From the NCBI GenBank assembly GCA_963830455.1, contig CAWHMT010000004.1, positions 178,644 to 242,643 of the forward strand: a DNA stretch of 64,000 nucleotides, in the 5' to 3' direction. The position numbers were made by a program, and so were the translations under genes. Below, piece after piece: positions 47,551 to 57,282 of this stretch. The notes beneath the pieces were generated by a model, which saw only the letters and a program-made list of their open reading frames with translations, searched no databases and had not been told where the DNA came from. Each line of letters starts with the position of its first letter. Position 1 is the stretch's first letter. The DNA comes from an uncultured Gemmatimonadales bacterium. Lineage in GTDB: Bacteria; Gemmatimonadota; Gemmatimonadetes; Gemmatimonadales; GWC2-71-9.

Positions 47551-49182
47551 TTGGAGCAGACGCGAGCCGCCGCCCTTCAGTCTCTGATCGATACGCCCGT
47601 GGACGTGCTCATCATCGGCGCAGGGATCACGGGCGCGGGGATCGCGCGGGATGCGGCCATGCGCGGCTTCCGCACCGCCCTGATCGACAAGGCGGACTTC
47701 GGCGCCGGCACGTCGTCCCATTCATCGCGGCTGATTCATGGCGGCGTCCGCTATCTGGAGCAGTACGCGTTTCGGCTGGTGTTCGAGTCCAGTCACGAGC
47801 GCCGCATCCTGCTGAAGATCGCGCCCCACCTCGTGCGGCCGCTCGCTTTCCTCTTTCCTGTGTATCGCGGCGGCCGCGTGCCTGGCTGGAAGCTGCGCGC
47901 CGGGATGTGGCTGTACGACTTGCTCGCCGCGTTCCGGAACGTGGGACGGCACCGTTGGCTGGGTGCCAAAGAGGTCCGGCGCGTCGAGCCGGGCTTGCGC
48001 GATCGCGGGCTCAAGGGCGCCGCGATGTACTACGACGCGCAGGTCGACGACGCCCGGCTCGTCATCGCCAACGTGCGCGCGGCCGCGCGCGCGGGGGCGC
48101 TCGTGGCCAATTACGTCGAGGCGACGGCGCTGCTCAAACCGGACGGCCGGATCCGTGGGGTCACGATCCGCGACGTGCTCAGCGGCGAGACGACAACCAT
48201 TCGCGCCAACGTCGTGGTGAATGCCACGGGCCCCTGGTCCGACGCGCTGCGCCGTCTCGACAATCCTGCCGCCAAACCGCTGCTTCGCCCCACCAAGGGC
48301 GCCCATGTCTTCGTGCCGCGGCGCCGGATGTCGAACGAACATGCGGTCACGCTGTTCTCGCAGCTCGACGGCCGGGTGATGTTTGTGCTGCCTTGGGGAG
48401 ACCTGTCGTACATCGGAACCACCGATACGGACGCCGACACCTCGCCCGACGCGTTGCGTGTGACATCCGCCGATGTCACGTACCTGCTCCGATCGGCCAA
48501 CGCGGCGTTTCCGGACGCGCATCTCACCACGAACGACGTCATCTCGGGATGGGCGGGGCTGCGGCCGTTGCTGCACCAGGATAACGCGACCCCGTCGCAG
48601 GTGTCCCGTGAGCACGCGATCGAAGAAAGCGCGCAGGGGCTCGTCTCAATCGTGGGCGGGAAGCTCACCACGTATCGGGTGATGGCGCGCGACGTCGTCG
48701 ATCGCGTCGCGAAGCGACTGCACGCGCTCGATGGTCGCCCCATCGCGCCGCACCCGCCGACGGATCGCGAGCCTTTGCCGGGAGGCGAGTCCGCCGACCT
48801 CGAGGTGCTGGTCGAAGCGGCGCGCGCGCGGGGGACGCCTGAAGCGACCGCGCGCCATCTGGTCGCGAGCTATGGCAGCGAGGCCGCGGCCGTGCTGAAC
48901 CTGATCGATCGCGAGCGCCCGCTCGGCCAGCCGATCCTCCCCGGGCGGCCTGAGATCTGGGCGGAAGTGACATATGCGGTCGAGCGCGAACTGGCGCTGC
49001 GGGTGCAGGACGTGTTGATCCGTCGCCTGCAGTTGTTTTACGAAACGCGGGACCAGGGGCTGTCCATCGCCGGCGCGGTCGCGAGCCGGATGAAAAAGCT
49101 CCTCGGCTGGGACGAGACCCGTGAAGCCGAGGAGCTCCGTGACTACGCGCACGCCGTCGAACGCGCCCGGATCAAGGTTTGA
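47551..49182 (+). CDS. glpD: FAD-dependent glycerol-3-phosphate dehydrogenase/oxidase
   Basis: The TTG start is preceded by GGAGGGGA. DVLIIGAGITGAGIARDAAMRG and SSRLIHGGVRYLE are GlpD signatures. Confidence 0.88.
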   Translation: MEQTRAAALQSLIDTPVDVLIIGAGITGAGIARDAAMRGFRTALIDKADFGAGTSSHSSRLIHGGVRYLEQYAFRLVFESSHERRILLKIAPHLVRPLAFLFPVYRGGRVPGWKLRAGMWLYDLLAAFRNVGRHRWLGAKEVRRVEPGLRDRGLKGAAMYYDAQVDDARLVIANVRAAARAGALVANYVEATALLKPDGRIRGVTIRDVLSGETTTIRANVVVNATGPWSDALRRLDNPAAKPLLRPTKGAHVFVPRRRMSNEHAVTLFSQLDGRVMFVLPWGDLSYIGTTDTDADTSPDALRVTSADVTYLLRSANAAFPDAHLTTNDVISGWAGLRPLLHQDNATPSQVSREHAIEESAQGLVSIVGGKLTTYRVMARDVVDRVAKRLHALDGRPIAPHPPTDREPLPGGESADLEVLVEAARARGTPEATARHLVASYGSEAAAVLNLIDRERPLGQPILPGRPEIWAEVTYAVERELALRVQDVLIRRLQLFYETRDQGLSIAGAVASRMKKLLGWDETREAEELRDYAHAVERARIKV

Positions 49183-50446
49183 CGCGCACGCGCGGTCGGA
49201 TACGAATGTTCGAGTCGTCGTCGTCGTCTTCGATCTGGCGCAGCGCCCACGTCGCGGCGCGCCGAACCGATCCCGCTTCATCGCTCTGAGCAGCCACGAG
49301 CCCGTCGCGGGCGAGCGGGCTTTCGATCTCGCCCAGGGCCCACGCGGCGGTCGCGCGGACCTCGATGTCACTGTCCTTGAGCGCCGCGACCAGCGGATCG
49401 ACCGCGCTTTCGCTTTCGATTTCTCCCAACGCCCAGGCGGCGAGCACGCGCACCTCGGGGTCGGCGTCGCGCAGGCCGACGGCCACGAGGCGGACCCCGC
49501 TCGCTTCTTCGATTTCGCCCAGTGCCCAGAGCGCCGTCTTGCGCACGCTCACGACCGGATCGCGCACGAGCGGCTCGAGCGCCGCGACGCCTTGACCGCT
49601 TTCGATTTCACCCAGCGCCCAGGCCGCGGCCTGGCGCACGCGCGGCTCGCGGTCCTTCGTGGCGGTGGTGAGCAGCGGCACCGCGCTGGCGTCCTCGATT
49701 TCGCCGAGGGACCACACCGCGGCGATGCGGACCTCGAGGACCGGATCGTTCACGGCCGCCGTGAGCGGGCGAACCCCGCGCGCGTCTTCGATCTCGCCGA
49801 TCGCCCACGCGGCGGTGCGACGGACTTCGGGTGCGCGGTCATTGAGGGCGCGCGCGAGCGCGTCGATGGCGACCTTGTCTTCGATCTCCCCGAGCGCCCA
49901 GGCCGCGGTCATGCGAACCGCGGGGGTATCGTCATCGCTCAGCGCCTTGCTGAGCGGACTGATGGCGCGCGAGTCCTCCATTTCGCCGAGGCCCAACGCA
50001 CCGGTCTCGCGCAGGTCGGCCCGTGCGTCGCGCAGCAGGCTGATGAAGAGATCGTACTCACCCGATCCGCCGTGATTCCCGAGCACGCGCACGGCGATCT
50101 TGCGCACGCAAGGGTTCTCGTCGCGCACGAAGGAGCGGAACGCGCGCAGCGCCCCCGGGTCGATGTCCGAGCTGCGCTCGTGCATCTCGACGTGAACGCC
50201 GCCACCGCCGCCTCCGGGCATCGGCATTGGAGTCGGCATCGGGCGCGGCATCGGCATCGCCGGGTCTGAGTAGTTCCAACCGCCCCAGCCCCACCAGCCG
50301 CCATAGTTGGTCATGGCCTGGCCAGCGAGCCGGCAGACGGTGGAATCGCTCGTCTTGAGCTGCGAGAGCACCCGCGTGACCGTAGCGGAGTCGAGGGTGG
50401 GGTGGTTCTGCACGGCGACCAGCAAAGCCAGGAACGTTGCAAGCAT
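49172..50446 (-). CDS. HEAT (PBS-lyase type) repeat protein with signal-anchor, Trp/Gly-rich and (Met-Pro)n segments
   Basis: The ATG at 50446 gives MLATFLALLVAV, followed by NYGGWWGWGGWNY, PAMPMPRPMPTPMPMPGGGGGG and then ten 31-aa units ending in AAWALGEIE-like motifs. Confidence 0.8.
   Translation of the reverse strand: MLATFLALLVAVQNHPTLDSATVTRVLSQLKTSDSTVCRLAGQAMTNYGGWWGWGGWNYSDPAMPMPRPMPTPMPMPGGGGGGVHVEMHERSSDIDPGALRAFRSFVRDENPCVRKIAVRVLGNHGGSGEYDLFISLLRDARADLRETGALGLGEMEDSRAISPLSKALSDDDTPAVRMTAAWALGEIEDKVAIDALARALNDRAPEVRRTAAWAIGEIEDARGVRPLTAAVNDPVLEVRIAAVWSLGEIEDASAVPLLTTATKDREPRVRQAAAWALGEIESGQGVAALEPLVRDPVVSVRKTALWALGEIEEASGVRLVAVGLRDADPEVRVLAAWALGEIESESAVDPLVAALKDSDIEVRATAAWALGEIESPLARDGLVAAQSDEAGSVRRAATWALRQIEDDDDDSNIRIRPRVRVKP
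49215..50146 (-). repeat. In-frame tandem array of ~93-bp HEAT-like units (10 copies)
   Basis: The units end VRVLGNHGG, GALGLGEME, AAWALGEIED, AAWAIGEIED, AVWSLGEIED, AAWALGEIES, ALWALGEIEE, AAWALGEIES, AAWALGEIES, ATWALRQIED. Confidence 0.8.
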
Positions 50447-50488
50447 GACCAATCCCGGGTGGAGGATACGTCCGTTTGGATATGAGGA

Positions 50489-51370
50489 ATGTCCCAAAGG
50501 TTGCCGCGTCGGGAAATGGCGGTATTTTCCCGCCCCGTGCGTCACCGTACCTGGCCCGTTTTCCTCTGTGTTGTCGGTCTCCCCGCCTGCTCCCGGCCTG
50601 AAGCGCCCCGGCAAGCGATTGCCGCGGCGAGTACGGCGGACTCGATCATCCCTGATGGCCCCTTTGGCGACGCCGTGCGCCGCGGCCGGGCGATTCTGCT
50701 GGCAACCCGCGACAGCCTACCGAGCCACGTGGGAAACCAGCTGCGTTGTACCAGCTGTCATCTCGACGCCGGGCGCCGGGAGATGGGCTCCTGGGTCGGC
50801 GTGTTCGGGCGCTATCCGCAATACCGTCCCCGCAGTGGCATCGTCGAAACGATCGAATACCGCGTCAATGACTGCTTCCGCCGCAGCATGAACGGCACCG
50901 CGCTGGACCCGGCGGGTACCGACATGCGCGACATCGTGGCCTACCTGGCGTTTCTGTCTCGGGGAACCCCGGTGGGCCCGCCCACCGTGGCACCCGGAAC
51001 GCGACTCCAGAAGTGGGCTTCGTTTTCGGCGGACACCGCGGCGGGCGCGCGCGTGTTCGGCGCGTCGTGCGCGAAGTGCCACGGCGCGGCCGGGGAGGGA
51101 AGCGCTGTCGCGCCCCCGGTGTGGGGTCCGCAGTCGTACAACGTGGGAGCGGGGATGACGCGCGTCCGCGCCGCGGCCGAGTTCATCCGGCACAACATGC
51201 CGTTCGACGCACCCGGAACGCTCACCGACCAGCAGGCCTTTGACGTCGCCGCATACGTGAATGCGCAGCCGCGACCCGATTACAAAGGCAAGGAAAACGA
51301 CTGGCCGAACGGCGATCCGCCACCCGATGTTGCGTATCCAACGCGGTCCGCCACACGCCGCGTCCCGTAG
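50489..51370 (+). CDS. Dihaem c-type cytochrome, TsdA-like (thiosulfate dehydrogenase family)
   Basis: It has two CxxCH sites (CTSCH, CAKCH). LPSHVGNQLRCTSCHLDAG and RVNDCFRRSMNG resemble TsdA as I recall it. An alternative start at 50516 gives a lipobox (GLPAC). Confidence 0.7.
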   Translation: MSQRLPRREMAVFSRPVRHRTWPVFLCVVGLPACSRPEAPRQAIAAASTADSIIPDGPFGDAVRRGRAILLATRDSLPSHVGNQLRCTSCHLDAGRREMGSWVGVFGRYPQYRPRSGIVETIEYRVNDCFRRSMNGTALDPAGTDMRDIVAYLAFLSRGTPVGPPTVAPGTRLQKWASFSADTAAGARVFGASCAKCHGAAGEGSAVAPPVWGPQSYNVGAGMTRVRAAAEFIRHNMPFDAPGTLTDQQAFDVAAYVNAQPRPDYKGKENDWPNGDPPPDVAYPTRSATRRVP

Positions 51371-51393
51371 TTCACCACCTGAGGAGGTTTCCG

Positions 51394-52065
51394 ATGTTCG
51401 AGTTCAACGACGTCACTACTCCCCGCCGCGGCTTTTTGGGTACTCTTGCCGCCACCGCGGCCGCAGGTCTCGCCAGCCTGACCCCGCTGCGGCTCGAGGC
51501 GCAGCCGCGCCGCGGATCGAGCGGCGTGGATGCGGCGTTCGAGACGTGGCTCAACCGGATCACGGGGAAGCACAAGATGGTGTTCGACGCGCCCGAGGTG
51601 AACGGCGGCATGCCGGTGATCTGGCCGCGCGTCTGGCTCAACGGCAACAACGAGAATTACGGCACCAAGGACGCCGACAACTCCGGCGTGGTCGTGCTCC
51701 GTCACTCGGCCATTCCGATTGCCATGAAGGATGAGGTGTGGGCGAAGTACAAACTGGGCGAGGCGTTCAACATCAAAGACGGCGATGCACCGGCCGTCAA
51801 GAACGGTTTCGCGAAGGTAATGCCCTTGCCGCTGCCGGGCACCGGGCTCGAAGCGCTGCTCGCGAGTGGCGTGCTGGTCGGTGTGTGCAACGTCGCACTC
51901 ACCGTCTACAGCGCCATGGTGGCGCAGAAGATGGGGCAGGATCCCGCCGCCGTGAAGGCGGACTGGGTTGCCGGCCTGCTGCCCGGCTGCCAGGTCGTGC
52001 CCTCAGGCGTGCTCGCGGTGGCGAGAACGCAGGAGAAGGGCTGCGGGTACTGTTTCGCGGGCTAA
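51394..52065 (+). CDS. Tat-exported hypothetical protein
   Basis: GAGGAGG lies 7 nt upstream. It has the twin-arginine signal TPRRGFLGTLAATAAAGLASL and no haem motif. A DsrE-like fold is a weak guess only. Confidence 0.65.
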   Translation: MFEFNDVTTPRRGFLGTLAATAAAGLASLTPLRLEAQPRRGSSGVDAAFETWLNRITGKHKMVFDAPEVNGGMPVIWPRVWLNGNNENYGTKDADNSGVVVLRHSAIPIAMKDEVWAKYKLGEAFNIKDGDAPAVKNGFAKVMPLPLPGTGLEALLASGVLVGVCNVALTVYSAMVAQKMGQDPAAVKADWVAGLLPGCQVVPSGVLAVARTQEKGCGYCFAG

Positions 52066-52126: not shown

Positions 52127-52588
52127 TCATTCGAGCGTTGAACGCTCGGGCGCGGCCTGACGGGCGTACGTTAGACCGCGCATCGTGCTGTAGGCGAAGA
52201 TGAGCATGCCGGTAACGCGAATCAGCTGGCCCACGAGTTGGTCGTGATCGAGCAATCCCACCTCGCCGAGCAGGTAGGTCCAGTCATGCTCGCCCCCTCC
52301 GACCAGTGGGAGCTCCTGGGCCTGCGCGTCCTGCGCATACCTCGCGACGTTCCAGAGATTCTGCGCGACCCACCATGCGGCGACGGTCGCCGCGTGACGA
52401 TCCGGTCGTCGCCAGAAGTACCAGACGAAGGCAAGCGGGAAGAGCAACTGCAGGAGCGTGCCGCCAAGCACACCGACAAACTCGCCGAACGGTCCGAAGA
52501 CCAGATGACCGGTTTCATGGATGGCGAGATCGACGTTGTCGAGCAGGCCGTAGTGGTCCGGAACGACGAGATAGTACAGGCCATACAC
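52127..52588 (-). CDS. Small integral-membrane protein with HExxH motif
   Basis: 153 aa. AIHETGH sits next to hydrophobic helices (LGGTLLQLLFPLAFVWYFW, VTGMLIFAY). It has a GTG start, and the hydrophobic reading frame is also open upstream. Confidence 0.6.
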   Translation of the reverse strand: MYGLYYLVVPDHYGLLDNVDLAIHETGHLVFGPFGEFVGVLGGTLLQLLFPLAFVWYFWRRPDRHAATVAAWWVAQNLWNVARYAQDAQAQELPLVGGGEHDWTYLLGEVGLLDHDQLVGQLIRVTGMLIFAYSTMRGLTYARQAAPERSTLE

Positions 52589-52632
52589 GCCGAGCGCCGC
52601 GGTGAGCAGCTGCCGGCCGCGCGCCTGGCGCT

Positions 52633-53625
52633 CTATTTCCAGCCCCGCAGGCTGCGCACGAAATCATGCAGCACCAGGAATTTCTCGTACAGGCGCACGC
52701 CTTTGCGCTTGCGGCCGAACTCGGCGAACAACTCGCGGAGACGGCCGCGGCGCGTCACGTAGAACCGGAACGTCTCGGCGAAATCCTCCTGCGGATGCGT
52801 CGCGGCGTACGCGCTCACGTAATCGGTGAGCGTCGTGGCGATCCGGCGCCGCTCGAAGTCCACCCAATGCTCGTCCGCGACGCGATACGCCTTGCGCACT
52901 TCGCCGAAGGCGCGGCGGAACCGGCCAGAACGCGTCCAGGACCAGTGATGGTAGAGGAAGGAGTGACCGAGCTCATGCAGGAGCAGGCCCGTGAGCATGT
53001 TCCACGAGATCTCGTCGCGACGCCGCTTCCCCGTGACGTAACGGCGATCGAGCTCGATCACCTTGGGCGCGCGCGGCGCGACGCCTGACACGCCGGGACG
53101 GAGCGCGACGCGGTACTGCCAATCGCGAATCCGGGAGACGATGAGCAGACGGCGCGCCCGTCGCAGCGCGCGCGGGATGAGGTCCCGCCCGGTCGCGTCC
53201 TCCCCGCACCAGGGGCAGGTGGCCATCCAGTCGTCCACACCGCGATCGCAGCGCGGGCACGAGTTCTGGAAGTGATCGTAGCGCCACGACTGCGCGCGCC
53301 CGCACCAGGGACAAAAGCGCATCGGGTACATCACGCCGCCGCCGCAGCCCCAGTCGCAGCGCGCGTGGAATTTGAAACCCTTGGGCGCCTTGAGCGGCTC
53401 GTCGCTGGAGTCCTTGTCCTTGATATCGCGGCCGCACCACGGACAGAACGACGAGGCGTCCGACACCATCCAGCCGCAGTAGGCGCATTCCGCCCCGGTC
53501 TCGCGCTGGGTGTCTTCCCATTCGAGCCGGCGGCTGCAGCTCGGGCAGTAGCTCCAGAACCGCTCCAGCTCGGTATGGCAGTGGGGACAGCGCAGCTCGG
53601 GGGTCGGCACCTCGCGACGGCTCAT
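52633..53625 (-). CDS. Four-zinc-ribbon N-domain fused to a putative zinc metallopeptidase (HExxH ... EDFAE)
   Basis: Cys pairs are CPHC..CPSC, CAYC..CPWC, CDWGC..CPWC and CPRC..CPWC, followed by LLHELGHSF and HPQEDFAETF. ATGA overlap with the ATP-grasp gene. Confidence 0.75.
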   Translation of the reverse strand: MSRREVPTPELRCPHCHTELERFWSYCPSCSRRLEWEDTQRETGAECAYCGWMVSDASSFCPWCGRDIKDKDSSDEPLKAPKGFKFHARCDWGCGGGVMYPMRFCPWCGRAQSWRYDHFQNSCPRCDRGVDDWMATCPWCGEDATGRDLIPRALRRARRLLIVSRIRDWQYRVALRPGVSGVAPRAPKVIELDRRYVTGKRRRDEISWNMLTGLLLHELGHSFLYHHWSWTRSGRFRRAFGEVRKAYRVADEHWVDFERRRIATTLTDYVSAYAATHPQEDFAETFRFYVTRRGRLRELFAEFGRKRKGVRLYEKFLVLHDFVRSLRGWK

Positions 53626-54620
53626 CGCGCCAGCGCCTCATCCACGATGCGTTGGATGAACGCGTTGTATTTGAGCCCCGACTTCTTGGCGGCCTCCGCC
53701 AGCTCGTGCTCGTCGGCAATGAACGGATTGGGATTCACCTCGAGGACGTACACCTCGTCGTCGTGCGCGAGGCGCACGTCCACCCGCCCGTAGTCCTGCA
53801 GCCACAGGGCGTGAAAGGCGGTGCTGCAGATCTCCCCGATGCGGGTCGTGAGCTGCTCGGAGACGCCTTTGGCGAAGACGTTCTTGATCTGCTTTTTCTT
53901 GCGGTACTCCTCGTCCCACTTGGCCTTGTATGTCGCGATGCGGTGCTCGCCGATTTCGGGCTCGCCGAACGTCATCTCCGTGAGCGGCAGCACCTCGAGC
54001 TCGTCGTTGCCGATCAGGCCGACGTACACCTCGCGGCCTTCGACCAGCTCCTCGACGATCGCGGCCTGATGGTACTTGGTGTGGATGAACTCGATCCGCT
54101 GTTTCAGGCTCGCGTCGTCCTCGACGACCGATGCCTGCGCGATGCCGATCGACGCGTCCTCGAGCAGCGGCTTGACGATGAGCGGGAACCGCAGCTCGGA
54201 CGGGCGCACCAGCTCGTCGCCTTCGTGGAACTCGGCGAACGCCGGCACCCGGATGCCGTGGAAGGCGAGCACTTTCTTGGTGAGCGACTTGTTGCGCGCG
54301 ACGAGCAGCGCGGTGGGAGAGGAGCCCGTGTAGCGATAGCCGTACATGTCCAGCAGCGCCGCGATCGCATATTCGTGGCGTGCGTTCTTGCGAAAGCCCT
54401 CGCAGCCGTTGAACACGAGCTTGGGCTGGAACGCCGCCAGCTTCGTGAGCAGCGGCACGACGTCATCGCCGATGCCGATCATCAGGACGTCGTGCCCGCC
54501 GGCCATCAGCGCGCGCGCGACATCGTACTCAGCCTCCTCGACCTTTTGATCGATCTCGTGCTTGAACGCCGCGTCATCCCACTCGGGGTGCAGCGAATCG
54601 AAGATGACGGCGATTCTCAT
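53622..54620 (-). CDS. ATP-grasp ligase of the D-Ala-D-Ala-ligase-like family (not a canonical Ddl)
   Basis: 332 aa. FPLIVKPLLEDASIGI, EELVEGREVYVGLIG and YVLEVNPNP fit the ATP-grasp fold. The N-terminus lacks the Ddl GGxSxEHEVS motif. Confidence 0.85.
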   Translation of the reverse strand: MRIAVIFDSLHPEWDDAAFKHEIDQKVEEAEYDVARALMAGGHDVLMIGIGDDVVPLLTKLAAFQPKLVFNGCEGFRKNARHEYAIAALLDMYGYRYTGSSPTALLVARNKSLTKKVLAFHGIRVPAFAEFHEGDELVRPSELRFPLIVKPLLEDASIGIAQASVVEDDASLKQRIEFIHTKYHQAAIVEELVEGREVYVGLIGNDELEVLPLTEMTFGEPEIGEHRIATYKAKWDEEYRKKKQIKNVFAKGVSEQLTTRIGEICSTAFHALWLQDYGRVDVRLAHDDEVYVLEVNPNPFIADEHELAEAAKKSGLKYNAFIQRIVDEALAR

Positions 54621-54629
54621 ATCATCTCC

Positions 54630-56039
54630 TCAACGTCCACCGGAGACGTGGAGGTCGAGTGCACTCACCCGCCGCATGTCTCGCCGTACGCTCGTGAGTC
54701 CGATGAGGATGATCACGCCGCCCAGGAACCCGACGGCCGGTAGGAGCAGCATCGCGCCCCGCAGGCTGCCGGTACGGTCCGAGAGATAGCCGATGAGGGG
54801 AGGCGCCAGCGCGTCGCCCGCGAGGTGCGAAAACAAGACAAACGCCCCCAGCACCGATGCCTGGACCGCCGGGGGGACGACATCGAGAATCACCGCGATC
54901 AGTGGACCGTTGTACCAGGTATAGAAGAAATACGTCGCGAGAACAAGCGGCGTGAACCAGCGGAGATCGTCAACGAGGAGCAACAACGCGCAGACCGGGG
55001 CACCGAGCACAAATCCCGCGCCGGACGCGAGCACGCGACCGCCAGGCCACCGCTGCTGCAGTCGATCGGCGAACCGCCCGCCTACCAGCGCGCCACCGAC
55101 ACCGCCGACAAGGGCCCAGAAGCCGAATTCAGAGCCCACGCGCGCGACTGAAAGGCCGTGCACCCGCTGCATGAACGCCGCCGCCCAGGCGATCAGTCCG
55201 TTCACGGCGAATGTCACCATGGCGCCGCCGAGAAAGACCCAGATGAGCGTCGGCGTGCGCAGCACCAGCACCGCGGCGTCCTGAAAGTCGTCGAACGCCC
55301 CCGCGGCGACTGCGCCAGCCGCGGTCGTGCGTCCCACGGCCAGCGGCACCAGCCGCCAAACCGTCCACGCGATGCCGGCGCTCACGCCCACACCAAACAC
55401 GGCCGTGCCAATGAGAGGGGGGATGCCCTCAAAGAGCGCCAGCAACGCCGCGATGGCGGCCCCGACTCCCGCGCAGATGGCGAGCGGCGCGACATACTGC
55501 GTGACGCCATGCATGCCGTGTCGCCACCACCCGCGAAGAGTCTCGACGATGGGGGGGGGCGGCCGGCGATCCAGCTCGCGCAGCCGCGATGCGAGCAAGG
55601 CGAGGACGAGTCCCGGAAATCCCATCCAGATGAATGCCCAGCGCCACCCGTAGCGCTCCGCAATGATGCCGCCGAGCCAGATCCCAAGGACGCCACCGAG
55701 CGCCATGCCCACCGAGTAGATGCCGATCGCGAACGCGCGCCGGCGGCCCTTGTAGTACTGCGCGATGATCGCCTGCGACGCCGGGCCGTAGCCCGCTTCG
55801 CCGAATCCCACGAGCGCGCGGCAGGTGAAGAGCTGCCAGAAGTGCCGAACGAATCCACCGGCCGTGGTCGCCGCGCTCCACACGGTGACGCCCCACGTGA
55901 TGACGGCGCGCCGGGAACGGAGATCGCCGATCACGCCGAGCGGCAGCGCGGCGAGCGACAACACGATGATGTACGCGGAGCCGAGCCATCCGAGCTGCGC
56001 GTCGGTGAGGTTCAGCTCGCGCTTGACCGGCTCGAACAC
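54630..56039 (-). CDS. MFS transporter (Spinster-like); true N-terminus probably extends to about 56165
   Basis: The track ORF starts at GTG 56039, but the same frame upstream encodes AYAAYVLGLLTLVNLLNYLDRNVVYA (TM1 plus the MFS N-terminal motif) with no ATG/GTG/TTG. A CTG at 56165..56163 has GAGG 6 nt upstream. Confidence 0.8.
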   Translation of the reverse strand: MFEPVKRELNLTDAQLGWLGSAYIIVLSLAALPLGVIGDLRSRRAVITWGVTVWSAATTAGGFVRHFWQLFTCRALVGFGEAGYGPASQAIIAQYYKGRRRAFAIGIYSVGMALGGVLGIWLGGIIAERYGWRWAFIWMGFPGLVLALLASRLRELDRRPPPPIVETLRGWWRHGMHGVTQYVAPLAICAGVGAAIAALLALFEGIPPLIGTAVFGVGVSAGIAWTVWRLVPLAVGRTTAAGAVAAGAFDDFQDAAVLVLRTPTLIWVFLGGAMVTFAVNGLIAWAAAFMQRVHGLSVARVGSEFGFWALVGGVGGALVGGRFADRLQQRWPGGRVLASGAGFVLGAPVCALLLLVDDLRWFTPLVLATYFFYTWYNGPLIAVILDVVPPAVQASVLGAFVLFSHLAGDALAPPLIGYLSDRTGSLRGAMLLLPAVGFLGGVIILIGLTSVRRDMRRVSALDLHVSGGR

Positions 56040-56145
56040 CGCGTAGACGACGTTGCGGTCGAGGTAATTGAGCAGGTTGACCAGCGTCAGCAGGCCCAGG
56101 ACGTACGCGGCGTACGCCCTGGTGGGGGTGCCGGACTTCGCGGTG

Positions 56146-57282
56146 TCAGGTCGCGCGGCCGCCAGTTGCCGCCTCGGCGCGCGCGTCGCGATCCTCTTTG
56201 GCCTCGAGATAGGAATCGGTGAGCTCGCGCATCATGTCCGCGCGCCTGTGGTACAGGCGCTTCAGCGTCCGGGGCTTGCGCCGGGCCAGCGCGTACGCGG
56301 CCAGTATGGGAAACGCGACGGTGTTGTCGAGATACGCCACAACGGTGCCGGGCAGCTTGTCCGGATCCACCTTGCCCCAGCTCACCGCCTCCGCCGGCGT
56401 CGCTCCCGAGAGGCCGCCCGTGTCGGGACGGGCATCGGTCAGCTGGAGGTAGTAGTCGTGGCCCTTCTCGCTGATGCCGAGCACTTCCTGAATCTGCGGC
56501 TCGGTTTGCAGCACGAAGTTCTTGGGACTGCCGCCGCCGATGATCAGCACGCCGCTCTTGCCGCCGCGCACCTTGGCCGAGAACACGATCGACGAGGTCT
56601 CGTTCACGTCGGCGCTCACGTCGAAGCGCAGCTTGCTTCCCGAGAGGGCCTGCTCGGCGACGTTCATCCCGATCGACGAATCTCCGGGCGAGGACGTGTA
56701 GATCGGCACCGCCGCGGCATGCGCCGCGCCGAGCACCGATTTCCGCGTCAGCCCGAGCGCCTGCTCACGCTCCAGCACGTAGCCGCCCAGCAGGTAGTGG
56801 TATTCGGCGGTGCTCATGGGCCGCTGAAATTCGGGCCGGGCCGAGACATCGCGGACGAAGCGGTCCGTCGACAGCAGGACGTCGTAATCGAAGAAGACGT
56901 CGTAGATCCGCACGACGCCCTCTTCACGCAACACCACGTCGTCGGCGAACGGCGTGCCGCGATGCATCGCCATGCCCAGGCCGAAGTGCGCATCGTGATA
57001 CAGATTCGCGCCGGTGGACACCATCCAGTCGATGAATCCCGCTTCGATCAGCGGGATCATCGTCGACATGCCGAGTCCCGCCGGGGTCATCGCACCGGTC
57101 AGGCTCATCCCGACGGTCACATCGTCTTCGAGCATGCGCTCGGCAAACAGCCGGCAGCCTTCGCTCAACCGGCCCGCGTTGTACGCCAGAAACGCGTTGT
57201 CGACGAGCTCGGCGACGGTCTCTTTGCCGGTGACCGGCTTCGGATTGATGCGCTGGCCGCGCAGGTATTCGTTTTGGGTCAT
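56146..57282 (-). CDS. Deoxyhypusine-synthase-like protein (DHS/homospermidine-synthase-like, NAD-dependent aminobutyl transferase family)
   Basis: The ATG at 57282 (MTQNEYL) forms an ATGA overlap with the LOG gene. [23 protein letters not shown] and GGGSPKNF are DHS-family blocks. Confidence 0.85.

What the first reader, a model, noticed from the sequence alone, without database searches (positions are those of the whole stretch)
52127..56165. MFS transporter - Ddl-like ATP-grasp - four-zinc-ribbon HExxH peptidase - membrane HExxH protein: a tightly coupled, uncharacterised ligase/peptidase module
Four co-directional minus-strand genes are packed with a 9-nt gap (MFS to ATP-grasp), an ATGA overlap (ATP-grasp to peptidase) and a 44-nt gap (peptidase to the membrane protein).

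- The ATP-grasp has the Ddl-type C-terminal fold but lacks the canonical Ddl N-terminal GGxSxEHEVS motif. It is therefore unlikely to be the housekeeping D-Ala-D-Ala ligase and is more likely an amide-bond ligase with another substrate.
- Its coupled partner is unusual. Four consecutive Cys4 zinc ribbons (CPHC/CPSC, CAYC/CPWC, CDWGC/CPWC, CPRC/CPWC) are fused to a small HExxH...EDFAE metallopeptidase-like domain.
- A second HExxH protein (AIHETGH) embedded in the membrane follows.
- ATP-grasp ligase plus MFS exporter is the logic of dipeptide-antibiotic clusters such as bacilysin (BacD/BacE). A ligase plus a dedicated peptidase also fits a make-and-trim or self-resistance cycle, or a reversible peptide-tagging system.

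I know of no characterised system with this exact composition, so I rate it the best candidate in the window for a new system.
Basis: partly seen in the sequence, partly recalled or inferred. Interest (0 to 1): 0.8.

Follow-up and report, generated by a model that had tools for sequence, protein, structure and literature searches.

The report
Conserved ligase–zinc peptidase gene pair
Two of the four genes, a relative of the cell-wall enzyme D-Ala-D-Ala ligase and a zinc peptidase, form an uncharacterised gene pair found side by side in several bacterial phyla, while the transporter is a local addition and the small membrane protein a sporadic one.

Summary
The four minus-strand genes and their junctions are as described (9-nt gap, ATGA overlap, 44-nt gap). 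The organism is a Gemmatimonadales bacterium.

- **Ligase.** The ATP-grasp belongs to a large sister family of D-Ala-D-Ala ligase. It scores 444 bits to that family's profile and about 120 bits, below cut-off, to Ddl models. ATP and catalytic residues are invariant, but the D-Ala-binding residues are replaced. The Ser-Leu pair that holds the D-Ala2 carboxylate is Asp/Glu.
- **Pairing.** In distant members (37-43% identical; Verrucomicrobia, Deltaproteobacteria, soil metagenomes) a PF15887 "Peptidase_Mx" gene lies immediately upstream on the same strand in 38 of 42 loci with room. Nothing else recurs.
- **Local variant.** Gemmatimonadales have the reverse gene order and an N-terminus of four Cys4 zinc ribbons.
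- **Other genes.** The MFS transporter, with a homospermidine-synthase-like gene upstream, is linked only within this order. The membrane HExxH protein occurs in 1 of 80 relatives.

Most likely this is an amide make-and-break enzyme pair, possibly with a cationic amine acceptor. The substrate is unknown. I found no characterised homologue and no paper on the pair.

The parts
53622..54620 (-). Ddl-sister ATP-grasp ligase, 332 aa; core component 1
   Evidence: Dala_Dala_lig_C 1e-28. Below all NCBIfam Ddl cut-offs. Scores 444 bits to the family profile A2. 996 clusters at 50% identity score E<=1e-30. Catalytic residues kept and D-Ala site residues replaced.
52633..53625 (-). Four-zinc-ribbon Peptidase_Mx protein (ZnMx), 330 aa; core component 2
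   Evidence: PF15887 at 49 bits, cut-off 27, plus DZR/zinc-ribbon hits. 404 species-level genomes encode a relative. ATGA overlap with the ligase.
53206..53589 (-). Four Cys4 zinc ribbons (residues 13-30, 47-64, 90-108, 123-140); Gemmatimonadales-specific N-terminal addition
   Evidence: All 16 Cys are invariant or nearly invariant. The ribbons are absent from Mx partners in other phyla.
52636..53190 (-). Mx (gluzincin-like) catalytic domain, residues 146-330
   Evidence: AF2 model with pLDDT 81 and pTM 0.85. Only weak Foldseek matches, to anthrax lethal factor, minigluzincins and 4l7a. Aligns with Mx partners of other phyla.
52963..52977 (-). HELGH zinc-binding/catalytic motif (H217, E218, H221)
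   Evidence: Invariant. Present, together with the HPxEDF[AS]E motif, in 46 of 48 distant partners.
52774..52797 (-). HPQEDFAE motif (H277-E284); probable third zinc ligand region
   Evidence: Invariant. Present in 47 of 48 distant partners.
54630..56165 (-). MFS transporter; lineage-specific neighbour, with an inferred non-canonical (CTG) start
   Evidence: MFS_1 2e-46. Found in 72 of 80 Gemmatimonadales loci. None is adjacent to the pair in 85 distant loci; there is one far, opposite-strand hit. Start-codon problem.
56146..57282 (-). Deoxyhypusine-synthase-like homospermidine biosynthesis gene; operon context in Gemmatimonadales only
   Evidence: NF001980 at 541 bits, cut-off 450. Conserved directly upstream of the MFS in 70 of 80 loci.
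52127..52588 (-). Small membrane protein with HETGH; a real gene but a sporadic insertion, not part of the conserved unit
   Evidence: Present in only 1 of 80 relatives (L078). No Pfam, NCBIfam or PADLOC hit. Other genomes carry a different gene or nothing in this slot.

Best explanation
**What it is.** The functional unit is a two-gene cassette. One gene is a Ddl-sister ATP-grasp ligase. The other is a cytoplasmic Peptidase_Mx (HExxH...E gluzincin-like) hydrolase. They are co-transcribed and translationally coupled.

**Ligase (inferred).** It uses ATP to form an acyl-phosphate on a carboxylate substrate and joins it to an amine. The Ddl residues that hold the carboxylate of the incoming D-Ala are replaced by two acidic residues. 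I therefore infer that the acceptor is a cationic amine, such as a polyamine, a basic amino acid or a Lys side chain, and not D-alanine.

**Peptidase (inferred).** It hydrolyses the same or a closely related amide bond. That gives a make-and-break (write/erase or synthesis/turnover) pair, comparable in logic to glutathionylspermidine synthetase/amidase or cphA/cphB.

**The Gemmatimonadales variant (shown).** The peptidase has gained four N-terminal zinc ribbons, which I infer provide an extra binding module. The gene order is inverted. The pair sits at the end of an operon that encodes a homospermidine-synthase-like enzyme and an MFS transporter, which weakly suggests a polyamine-related substrate in this lineage.

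**Shown versus inferred.** Shown: family membership, conserved pairing, conserved catalytic motifs, and loss of Ddl specificity residues. Inferred: the chemistry, the acceptor type, and the relation between the two activities.
For: **Pairing across phyla**
- A PF15887-type gene lies immediately upstream of the ATP-grasp, on the same strand, in 38 of 42 distant loci with at least 1.1 kb of room on both sides.
- In 48 called pairs the gaps are mostly -4 to +18 nt, and 46 of 48 keep both HExxH and HPxEDF[AS]E.
- Pfam-annotated examples come from Prosthecobacter, a deltaproteobacterial MAG and others.
- Only these two families recur among neighbours.

**In Gemmatimonadales**
- The ligase is adjacent to ZnMx in 70 of 80 loci.
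- The two genes share an ATGA overlap.

**Ligase competence and specificity** (79 sequences; E. coli DdlB recalled from memory, its numbering agreeing with the literature at every position checked)
- K97, K144, S151, E180, E187, K215, R255, D257, E270 and N272 are invariant or nearly so.
- E15 is absent.
- S150 is Ala in 58 sequences and Y216 is Trp in 71.
- S281 is Glu/Asp in 75 and L282 is Asp/Glu in 77.

**Family separation from Ddl**
- 444 bits to the family profile against 118-128 bits to Ddl models whose cut-offs are about 245.
- Best PDB hit 73 bits.

**Peptidase**
- PF15887 scores above its cut-off.
- The metal and catalytic motifs are invariant.
- The domain model is confident. Its only matches, all weak, are zincins.

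**Polyamine context**
- NF001980 scores 541 bits.
- The DHS-MFS-ligase-ZnMx order is conserved.
Against: - No substrate or activity has been tested, and no characterised homologue exists to anchor the chemistry.
- The cationic-acceptor inference rests on alignment to a DdlB sequence recalled from memory. The loop alignment could be off by 1-2 residues. In the window protein the aligned pair is His-Glu within 'DEHE', not Glu-Asp.
- The polyamine link is seen in one order only, where unrelated flanking genes (QueG, GlpD) are equally syntenic. No DHS, LOG or adjacent MFS is found next to the pair in 85 distant loci.
- Nine Gemmatimonadales genomes keep an intact ZnMx next to the MFS with no ATP-grasp at the locus. 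The peptidase is therefore not strictly dependent on an adjacent ligase. Whether a ligase lies elsewhere in those genomes is unknown.
- Four distant loci with room on both sides (L084, L085, L094, L160) have the ligase without Mx.
- Relatives of the peptidase fold act on peptides and proteins, which fits a peptide substrate at least as well as a small-molecule amide.
- Structural similarity to known zincins is weak (Foldseek E>=0.23).
Confidence: 0.4

Rival explanations
1. Protein or peptide tagging and de-tagging. The ATP-grasp adds one or more amino acids to a protein or peptide carboxylate (C-terminus or side chain), or to a Lys side chain, as RimK and tubulin ligases do. The Mx peptidase trims the tag. 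The zinc ribbons recruit the macromolecular target.
For: - The nearest, though weak, structural matches of the Mx domain are endo- and aminopeptidase-type zincins (anthrax lethal factor, PPEP, minigluzincins).
- Four zinc ribbons are typical macromolecule-binding modules.
- No biosynthetic genes accompany the pair anywhere, as expected if the substrate is a common cellular protein.
- Tandem double-ATP-grasp variants exist.
Against: - The ligase is far closer to Ddl (small-molecule ligases) than to RimK: RimK Pfam 21.6 bits against Dala_Dala_lig_C 100.6 bits.
- No candidate target gene is conserved next to the pair.
- The zinc ribbons are absent from the pair in other phyla.
Confidence: 0.2
2. 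Synthesis and breakdown of a non-ribosomal oligo- or poly-amino-acid, or of a storage or osmoprotectant peptide. This would be analogous to the cyanophycinase-cyanophycin synthetase (cphB-cphA) two-gene operon.
For: - The architecture is the same: hydrolase gene directly upstream of an ATP-grasp ligase gene, with no other conserved partner.
- Double-domain ligases in the family could add two residue types.
- A weak profile hit to the cyanophycin synthase ATP-grasp domain.
Against: - There is no Mur-ligase-like second domain as in CphA.
- Similarity to CphA is marginal: 30 bits against 149 bits for Ddl.
- No polymer is known from these phyla that lacks an assigned synthetase (my own knowledge, not tested here).
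Confidence: 0.1
3. Cell-wall precursor remodelling in the manner of VanA/VanX. The ligase makes an alternative D-Ala-D-X terminus or another stem-peptide bond. The zinc hydrolase destroys the normal dipeptide.
For: All nearest solved relatives are Ddl/Van ligases. A Ddl-type ligase paired with a zinc hydrolase is the VanA/VanX logic (my own knowledge).
Against: - The D-Ala1 and D-Ala2 binding residues are not conserved: E15 absent, S150 to Ala, Y216 to Trp, S281/L282 to acidic residues.
- Mx is not an M15 VanX-type enzyme.
- No VanH/VanR/VanS or mur/dcw genes lie nearby.
Confidence: 0.08
4. A four-gene system makes a dipeptide-like antibiotic or metabolite (ligase), exports it (MFS), and trims it or confers self-resistance (two HExxH proteins).
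For: The four genes are tightly packed on one strand in this genome. The MFS is adjacent in 72 of 80 Gemmatimonadales loci.
Against: - The membrane HExxH gene is present in 1 of 80 relatives.
- No MFS lies next to the pair in 85 distant loci.
- The MFS is coupled to the upstream homospermidine-synthase-like gene and persists without the ligase.
- No precursor-biosynthesis genes are present.
- The locus is vertically conserved, like a housekeeping region, rather than patchy like an antibiotic cluster.
Confidence: 0.05
5. The ATP-grasp is simply the organism's D-alanine-D-alanine ligase, and the neighbours are incidental.
For: Automatic annotations call family members 'D-alanine-D-alanine ligase'.
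Against: - It scores below every curated Ddl cut-off.
- It lacks the N-terminal domain motif.
- The specificity residues are replaced.
- It has a conserved Mx partner.
- Not checked: whether a canonical ddl exists elsewhere in this genome. None is in the window.
Confidence: 0.02

Closest known systems
D-alanine-D-alanine ligase and Van ligases (Ddl, VanA/B/G; ATP-grasp, PF07478)
   Same: Same C-terminal ATP-grasp fold. The ATP, Mg and acyl-phosphate residues are all conserved: K97, K144, E180, K215, R255, D257, E270 and N272 in DdlB numbering. This is the nearest family with solved structures.
   Different: - 25% identity to DdlB.
- Below the curated family cut-offs.
- No Ddl N-terminal motif.
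- Substrate-site residues replaced, with S281/L282 becoming acidic.
- Not in a cell-wall gene cluster.
- Has a dedicated peptidase partner.
Peptidase_Mx / Mx1 'putative zinc-binding metallopeptidases' (PF15887, PF15890; PDB 4l7a, 9urd)
   Same: HExxH plus a downstream Glu-containing helix. PF15887 scores above its gathering threshold. Weak sequence and fold matches to 9urd and 4l7a.
   Different: The solved members are Bacteroidota import-associated lipoproteins of unknown activity. This protein is cytoplasmic, is fused to four zinc ribbons, and is paired with a ligase. No family member has a demonstrated substrate as far as I could find.
Anthrax lethal factor / MtfA-type gluzincins (MEROPS M34, M90)
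   Same: These are the best structural matches of the Mx domain model, though weak. From my memory of the lethal-factor sequence, its Y-x6-E-F-F-A-E-x-F motif matches Y273-x6-E280-D-F-A-E284-T-F here.
   Different: Foldseek E>=0.23 and TM-scores of about 0.4 on the query, so membership is not established. The domain is much smaller. There is no toxin context.
Glutathionylspermidine synthetase/amidase (GspSA)
   Same: Works alike in principle: an ATP-grasp-fold ligase joins a carboxylate to a polyamine amine, coupled to a hydrolase that reverses the bond. A polyamine gene lies in the same operon here.
   Different: A different ATP-grasp family, with no Gsp-synthetase hit. The GspSA hydrolase is a CHAP cysteine amidase, not a zinc enzyme. 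GspSA is a fusion, not two genes. The polyamine link here is only contextual and lineage-specific.
Cyanophycinase-cyanophycin synthetase operon (cphB-cphA)
   Same: A two-gene hydrolase-then-ATP-grasp-ligase cassette with no other obligate partner. This is the same gene order as the pair in non-Gemmatimonadales phyla.
   Different: CphA carries an extra Mur-ligase-type domain, and CphB is a serine peptidase. Sequence similarity is marginal.
LysX / LysW / LysK amino-group carrier system
   Same: It combines an ATP-grasp ligase, a Cys4 zinc-ribbon protein and a metal-dependent hydrolase that releases the product (my own knowledge).
   Different: LysX is RimK-type. LysW is a separate small carrier with an acidic C-terminus. 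LysK is an M20 enzyme. Here the ribbons are fused to the hydrolase, the C-terminus (LRGWK) is not acidic, and no lysine or arginine pathway genes are present.

Membership tests
D-alanine-D-alanine ligase (EC 6.3.2.4) | Score at or above the curated family cut-off (NCBIfam NF002378 243 bits; TIGR01205 245.65 bits) | tested here: not met
   128.4 and 118.4 bits.
D-alanine-D-alanine ligase (EC 6.3.2.4) | N-terminal domain with the GGxSxE(H/R)EVS motif (Glu15) that binds D-Ala1 | tested here: not met
   No PF01820 hit. Glu15 aligns to a gap in the window protein and in 70 of 79 family members.
D-alanine-D-alanine ligase (EC 6.3.2.4) | D-Ala site residues Ser150, Tyr216, Ser281 and Leu282 | tested here: not met
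   Ala, Trp, His(Glu/Asp), Glu(Asp/Glu) respectively, with family majorities 58, 71, 75 and 77 of 79. The DdlB sequence was recalled from memory and its numbering was checked for consistency.
D-alanine-D-alanine ligase (EC 6.3.2.4) | ATP-grasp catalytic core (Lys97, Lys144, Lys215, Arg255, Asp257, Glu270, Asn272) | tested here: met
   All are invariant in 79 of 79 family sequences. This feature is shared with the superfamily and is not specific to Ddl.
D-alanine-D-alanine ligase (EC 6.3.2.4) | Sole or essential ddl of the genome | not tested
   No second Ddl-like ORF lies in the 64-kb window. The rest of the genome (ENA ERZ25039492 contig_7337) could not be read.
Peptidase_Mx (Pfam PF15887) | Pfam score at or above the gathering threshold (27 bits) | tested here: met
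   49.4 bits, E=5e-13, residues 207-291.
Peptidase_Mx (Pfam PF15887) | HExxH and a downstream Glu motif conserved among homologues | tested here: met
   H217, E218, H221 and H277-P-x-E-D-F-A-E284 are invariant in 20 and in 59 sequences. Both motifs are present in 46 of 48 distant partners.
Peptidase_Mx (Pfam PF15887) | Zinc-dependent hydrolase activity | not testable with these tools
   No family member with a demonstrated activity was found.
Conserved Mx + Ddl-sister ATP-grasp cassette (uncharacterised, defined here) | Ligase of the Ddl-sister family adjacent to and co-directional with a PF15887-type gene | tested here: met
   ATGA overlap in the window. The ligase scores 444 bits to family profile A2. 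The pairing holds in 38 of 42 distant loci and in 70 of 80 Gemmatimonadales loci.
Conserved Mx + Ddl-sister ATP-grasp cassette (uncharacterised, defined here) | Usual layout: Mx gene first, about 340 aa, with a C-terminal extension and no zinc ribbons | tested here: not met
   In Gemmatimonadales the ligase comes first. The Mx protein has four N-terminal ribbons and no C-terminal extension.
Anthrax-lethal-factor-like gluzincins (MEROPS M34/M90) | Significant fold or sequence similarity to a member | tested here: inconclusive
   These are the best Foldseek hits but with E 0.23-1 and TMq of about 0.4. The motif resemblance is recalled from memory only.
L-amino-acid-ligase antibiotic cluster with exporter (bacilysin BacD/BacE type) | BacD/LAL-type ligase | tested here: not met
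   Only a 25-bit partial match to an LAL structure, 3vot. Ddl is far closer.
L-amino-acid-ligase antibiotic cluster with exporter (bacilysin BacD/BacE type) | Exporter and precursor-biosynthesis genes conserved alongside the ligase | tested here: not met
   No MFS lies next to the pair outside Gemmatimonadales. No other recurrent neighbours were found.
Known anti-phage defence systems | Match to a PADLOC model | tested here: not met
   No hit for any of the four proteins.

The most novel reading that the evidence does not exclude
The Mx/Ddl-sister pair could be a widespread and so far unrecognised enzyme system. It would reversibly couple an amino acid (or another carboxylate) to a cationic amine, either a polyamine such as homospermidine or a protein lysine. 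That would be a new class of aminoacyl-polyamine metabolite or a new post-translational mark in soil bacteria. In Gemmatimonadales the system is hard-wired to homospermidine synthesis and an MFS transporter, and it carries a four-zinc-ribbon targeting module.
Probability: 0.15. Interest if true: 0.75.

Novelty: new variant of a known kind. Interest (0 to 1): 0.55.

Why it matters
The ligase family is large: 996 clusters at 50% identity score E<=1e-30. Public databases routinely annotate its members as D-alanine-D-alanine ligase, and the evidence here says that annotation is wrong.

The constant pairing with a zinc hydrolase defines a compact cassette that can be tested experimentally. It is present in Gemmatimonadota, in Verrucomicrobia and Deltaproteobacteria (as the records name them) and in many soil metagenome contigs.

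Identifying the substrate would correct thousands of annotations. It could also reveal a new amide-linked metabolite or protein modification, possibly tied to polyamine metabolism. The acidic substitution at the acceptor site gives a concrete starting hypothesis for substrate screening.

Tried and rejected
1. **Full-length structure of ZnMx.** The model was poor (pLDDT 56) and its Foldseek hits were not significant. The domain-only model was good (pLDDT 81) but still had no PDB match at E<=0.001.
2. **Mx-ligase fusion proteins.** The family members of 650-720 aa are tandem double ATP-grasps, not fusions.
3. **Defence system.** No PADLOC hit.
4. **Plasmid-borne annotated copies.** None found.
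5. **Literature.** No paper combines the relevant terms ('zinc-binding metallopeptidase' + ATP-grasp, PF15887, Peptidase_Mx, Ddl-like, ATP-grasp + zincin or MtfA). The 2009 amidoligase survey by Iyer et al. (PMC3268129) is not held. I cannot exclude that the pairing is mentioned there.
6. **RiPP/graspetide reading.** Rejected. There is no room for a precursor gene (9-nt gap, overlap), and the ligase is Ddl-type.
7. **Membrane HExxH protein.** No Pfam, NCBIfam or PADLOC family, even at E<=10 for Pfam.
8. **Promoter/terminator scan.** It gave nothing that divides the block.
9. **Canonical ddl elsewhere in the genome.** Not possible with the look-up tools.

Full report
**Observation**

The region holds four minus-strand ORFs:
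- an MFS transporter (54630-56039 as the longest canonical ORF);
- a 332-aa ATP-grasp (53622-54620);
- a 330-aa zinc-ribbon/HExxH protein (52633-53625);
- a 153-aa hydrophobic HETGH protein (52127-52588).

MFS TGA is followed by 9 nt (GGAGATGAT) and the ATG. A cgATGAgc overlap joins the next two genes. TAG, then 44 nt, then GTG precedes the last gene.

Pfam and NCBIfam confirm the domain calls:
- MFS_1, 2e-46;
- Dala_Dala_lig_C, 1e-28, with no Ddl N-terminal domain;
- PF15887 Peptidase_Mx, 49 bits against a cut-off of 27, plus DZR and zinc-ribbon models;
- nothing for the small membrane protein.

Homologues are named Gemmatimonadales or Gemmatimonadetes. The window matches a 1.92-Mb ENA contig.

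One correction concerns the MFS start. The first MFS transmembrane helix (RAYAAYVLGLLTLVNLLNYLDR) is encoded upstream of the GTG at 56039. No ATG, GTG or TTG precedes it.

**The block is longer than four genes**

Upstream on the same strand lie three more genes:
- a deoxyhypusine-synthase-like 'homospermidine biosynthesis protein' (NF001980, 541 bits, cut-off 450);
- a LOG/TIGR00730 protein;
- a class-V aminotransferase.

**Synteny within the order**

A scan of one genome per species found 404 genomes with a relative of the zinc-ribbon peptidase. The best 80 loci were kept. Their record titles name Gemmatimonadales, Gemmatimonadota or Gemmatimonadaceae in all but two cases: one contig binned as Krumholzibacteriia and one 'uncultured bacterium'. 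I ran tblastn with the window's proteins against these loci.

| Gene | Loci with a match (of 80) |
|---|---|
| Zinc-ribbon peptidase (ZnMx) | 80 |
| MFS | 72 |
| ATP-grasp | 70 |
| DHS-like | 70 |
| LOG | 69 |
| Small membrane protein | 1 (L078) |

- Unrelated flanking genes (QueG, GlpD) are also syntenic. Conservation inside this order is therefore weak evidence of function.
- The small membrane protein stays at 1 of 80 even at E<1. In L078 it is 73% identical and keeps HETGH.
- Other genomes have a different gene in that slot, for example a signal-peptide protein on the opposite strand in L005, or nothing.
- In nine loci (L035-L038, L040-L043, L069) the ATP-grasp is missing and the MFS abuts an intact ZnMx with all motifs.
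- In L080 the MFS is missing.

**What the ligase is**

- Against curated Ddl models it scores 128 and 118 bits, where the cut-offs are 243 and 246.
- The best solved structures are Ddl enzymes at no more than 73 bits.
- An exhaustive HMMER search of 1.84 billion cluster representatives found 996 clusters at E<=1e-30. Many are full-length proteins of about 340 aa at 35-48% identity and 190-320 bits.
- Named members come from Verrucomicrobia/Prosthecobacter, Deltaproteobacteria, Chlamydiota and Binatia. They are annotated only as 'D-alanine-D-alanine ligase' or 'ATP-grasp domain-containing protein'.
- The window protein scores 444 bits to a profile of these distant members.
- That profile reaches only 149 bits or less on any PDB chain, and all the top chains are Ddl/Van ligases.

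So this is a distinct sister family of Ddl with no solved or curated member.

I aligned 79 family sequences to E. coli DdlB. The DdlB sequence was recalled from memory. Its residues fall on the literature numbering at every position checked, and its alignment range agrees with the PDB hit 1iov/2dln.

| DdlB residue(s) | Role | In the family |
|---|---|---|
| K97, K144, S151, K215, R255, D257, E270, N272 | ATP, Mg, catalysis | invariant (79 of 79) |
| E180, E187 | ATP, Mg, catalysis | Glu in 78 of 79 |
| E15 | D-Ala1 site | falls in a gap |
| S150 | D-Ala1 site | Ala in 58 of 79 |
| Y216 | D-Ala1 site | Trp in 71 of 79 |
| S281 | D-Ala2 carboxylate | Glu/Asp in 75 of 79 |
| L282 | D-Ala2 carboxylate | Asp/Glu in 77 of 79 |

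In Ddl, S281 and L282 bind the carboxylate of the incoming D-Ala (established knowledge of DdlB). An acidic pair at that place argues against a carboxylate-bearing acceptor. It suggests a positively charged amine. This is an inference, and the alignment may be off by 1-2 residues in that loop.

**The conserved partner**

Gene contexts of distant family members carry a gene of about 340 aa immediately upstream of the ligase:
- in Prosthecobacter, L081 4985-6001, ending where the ligase starts;
- in a 1-Mb metagenome contig, L083;
- in a deltaproteobacterial MAG, L167;
- in L169.

Pfam assigns these to PF15887 at 24-30 bits. They align with the window protein across HExGH and YA..HPxEDFAETF. They lack the zinc ribbons and carry a C-terminal extension instead.

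I then fetched 80 metagenome loci around distant ligases and searched all ORFs with an Mx-core HMM.
- 62 of 85 loci have an Mx gene.
- Among loci with at least 1.1 kb of room on both sides of the ligase, 38 of 42 have it. It is always upstream and on the same strand.
- In 48 called pairs the spacing is mostly -4 to +18 nt, and 46 keep both motifs.
- The window ligase is 37-43% identical to these ligases, against 25% to DdlB.
- Clustering all neighbouring genes showed that only the ligase (78 loci) and Mx (57 loci) recur. The next family, a putative acetyltransferase, is in 12.
- No DHS or LOG homologue is present, and only one distant opposite-strand MFS.

The conserved unit is therefore a two-gene Mx + ligase cassette. 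The Gemmatimonadales version is a variant with inverted order and a ribbon-bearing peptidase.

**The peptidase**

- All 16 cysteines of the four ribbons are invariant or nearly so. The ribbons are CxxC-x10-CxxC; the third is Cx3C-x10-CxxC.
- H217, E218, H221, H226, Y273, H277, E280 and E284 are likewise invariant.
- The full-length model was poor.
- The Mx domain alone modelled well, with pLDDT 81 and pTM 0.85.
- Foldseek against PDB gave no hit at E<=0.001. The top of the list was consistently zincins: anthrax lethal factor, minigluzincins and the Bacteroides PF15890 protein 4l7a.
- Profile search of PDB sequences gave only 9urd (E=0.002) and 4l7a.
- From memory, the lethal-factor motif Y-x6-E-F-F-A-E-x-F parallels Y273-x6-E280-D-F-A-E284-T-F. 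That would make E280 the third zinc ligand. This is a lead, not a test.
- There is no signal peptide or membrane segment, so the protein is cytoplasmic (read directly from the sequence).

**Interpretation**

Both enzymes look catalytically competent, and they are coupled across phyla. The simplest mechanism is an ATP-driven amide-forming step paired with a hydrolytic step on the same or a related bond.

- The acidic acceptor site points to a cationic amine.
- The Gemmatimonadales operon, with homospermidine synthase and an MFS, offers a candidate polyamine. That link is confined to one order and is therefore weak.

Alternatives that remain open:
- tagging and trimming of a protein or peptide, favoured by the peptidase fold class and the ribbons;
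- a small polymer synthesis/degradation pair like cphBA;
- a Van-like cell-wall role, disfavoured by the substituted D-Ala sites.

Housekeeping Ddl is effectively excluded, although I could not check the rest of the genome for a canonical ddl. No defence-system model matches.

**Novelty**

Each protein belongs to a known superfamily. Ligase/hydrolase pairs are a known design (GspSA, cphBA, VanA/VanX, LysX/LysK). I therefore rate this a new variant of a known kind, not categorically new.

The specific pairing, its breadth, the systematic mis-annotation as Ddl and the ribbon-fused variant appear undescribed in what I could search. The most relevant survey (Iyer et al. 2009) could not be read.

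**Scores**

Interest is 0.55: a solid, widely distributed, experimentally tractable unknown, but with no demonstrated chemistry.

Noticed in passing
window 56039-56165 (minus strand); L001-L078: The MFS gene has no ATG, GTG or TTG upstream of its first transmembrane helix. The same holds in 20 of 35 related genomes. A CTG about 17 codons before the helix, inside the 3' end of the homospermidine-synthase-like gene, is CTG in 31 of 31 loci where the motif is found. This may be a conserved CTG start or termination-reinitiation coupling. The public gene call truncates the protein to 469 aa.
   Followed up: partly
L035-L038, L040-L043, L069 (for example L036 6496-8990): A Gemmatimonadales sub-lineage lacks the ATP-grasp at this locus. 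Its MFS stop sits 2-5 nt from the start of an intact zinc-ribbon peptidase, with HELGH, HPQEDFAE and all 8 CxxC motifs kept. Whether a ligase lies elsewhere in those genomes is unknown.
   Followed up: partly
proteins P0259, P0263, P0291, P0297, P0332, P0341, P0354, P0385: Some members of the Ddl-sister family are 650-720 aa proteins with two tandem Dala_Dala_lig_C ATP-grasp modules. This suggests enzymes that make two successive ligations.
   Followed up: partly
window 52127-52632; L005 9046-9486: The slot downstream of the peptidase is variable. It holds a 153-aa HETGH membrane protein here and in L078, and a 146-aa signal-peptide protein on the opposite strand in L005. Several other genomes have nothing there.
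   Followed up: partly
L084 7007-7357; L085: A deltaproteobacterial branch of the ligase family has no Mx gene. Instead it has a 116-aa CxxCxxCC (putative zinc/iron-chelating, PF03692-like) gene overlapping the ligase stop in L084. No gene is called at that position in L085.
   Followed up: no
window 57279-57282: The LOG-family gene stop and the likely ATG of the homospermidine-synthase-like gene (Met25 of the long ORF) form another ATGA overlap. The tightly coupled block therefore runs at least LOG-DHS-MFS-ligase-peptidase. This was read from ORF coordinates and not verified further.
   Followed up: no
window 49172-50614 (minus strand): A HEAT-repeat protein carries an unusual Pro/Met-rich stretch (PMPMPRPMPTPMPMPGGGGGG) before the repeats. 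It is conserved at variable identity (37-83%) in 45 of 80 related loci.
   Followed up: no
window 50489-52065 (plus strand): A SoxA/TsdA-type dihaem cytochrome c is followed by a 223-aa Tat-signal protein with no Pfam family (weak thiosulfate-dehydrogenase hint, E=0.007). The pair is conserved in about 44 of 80 related loci.
   Followed up: no
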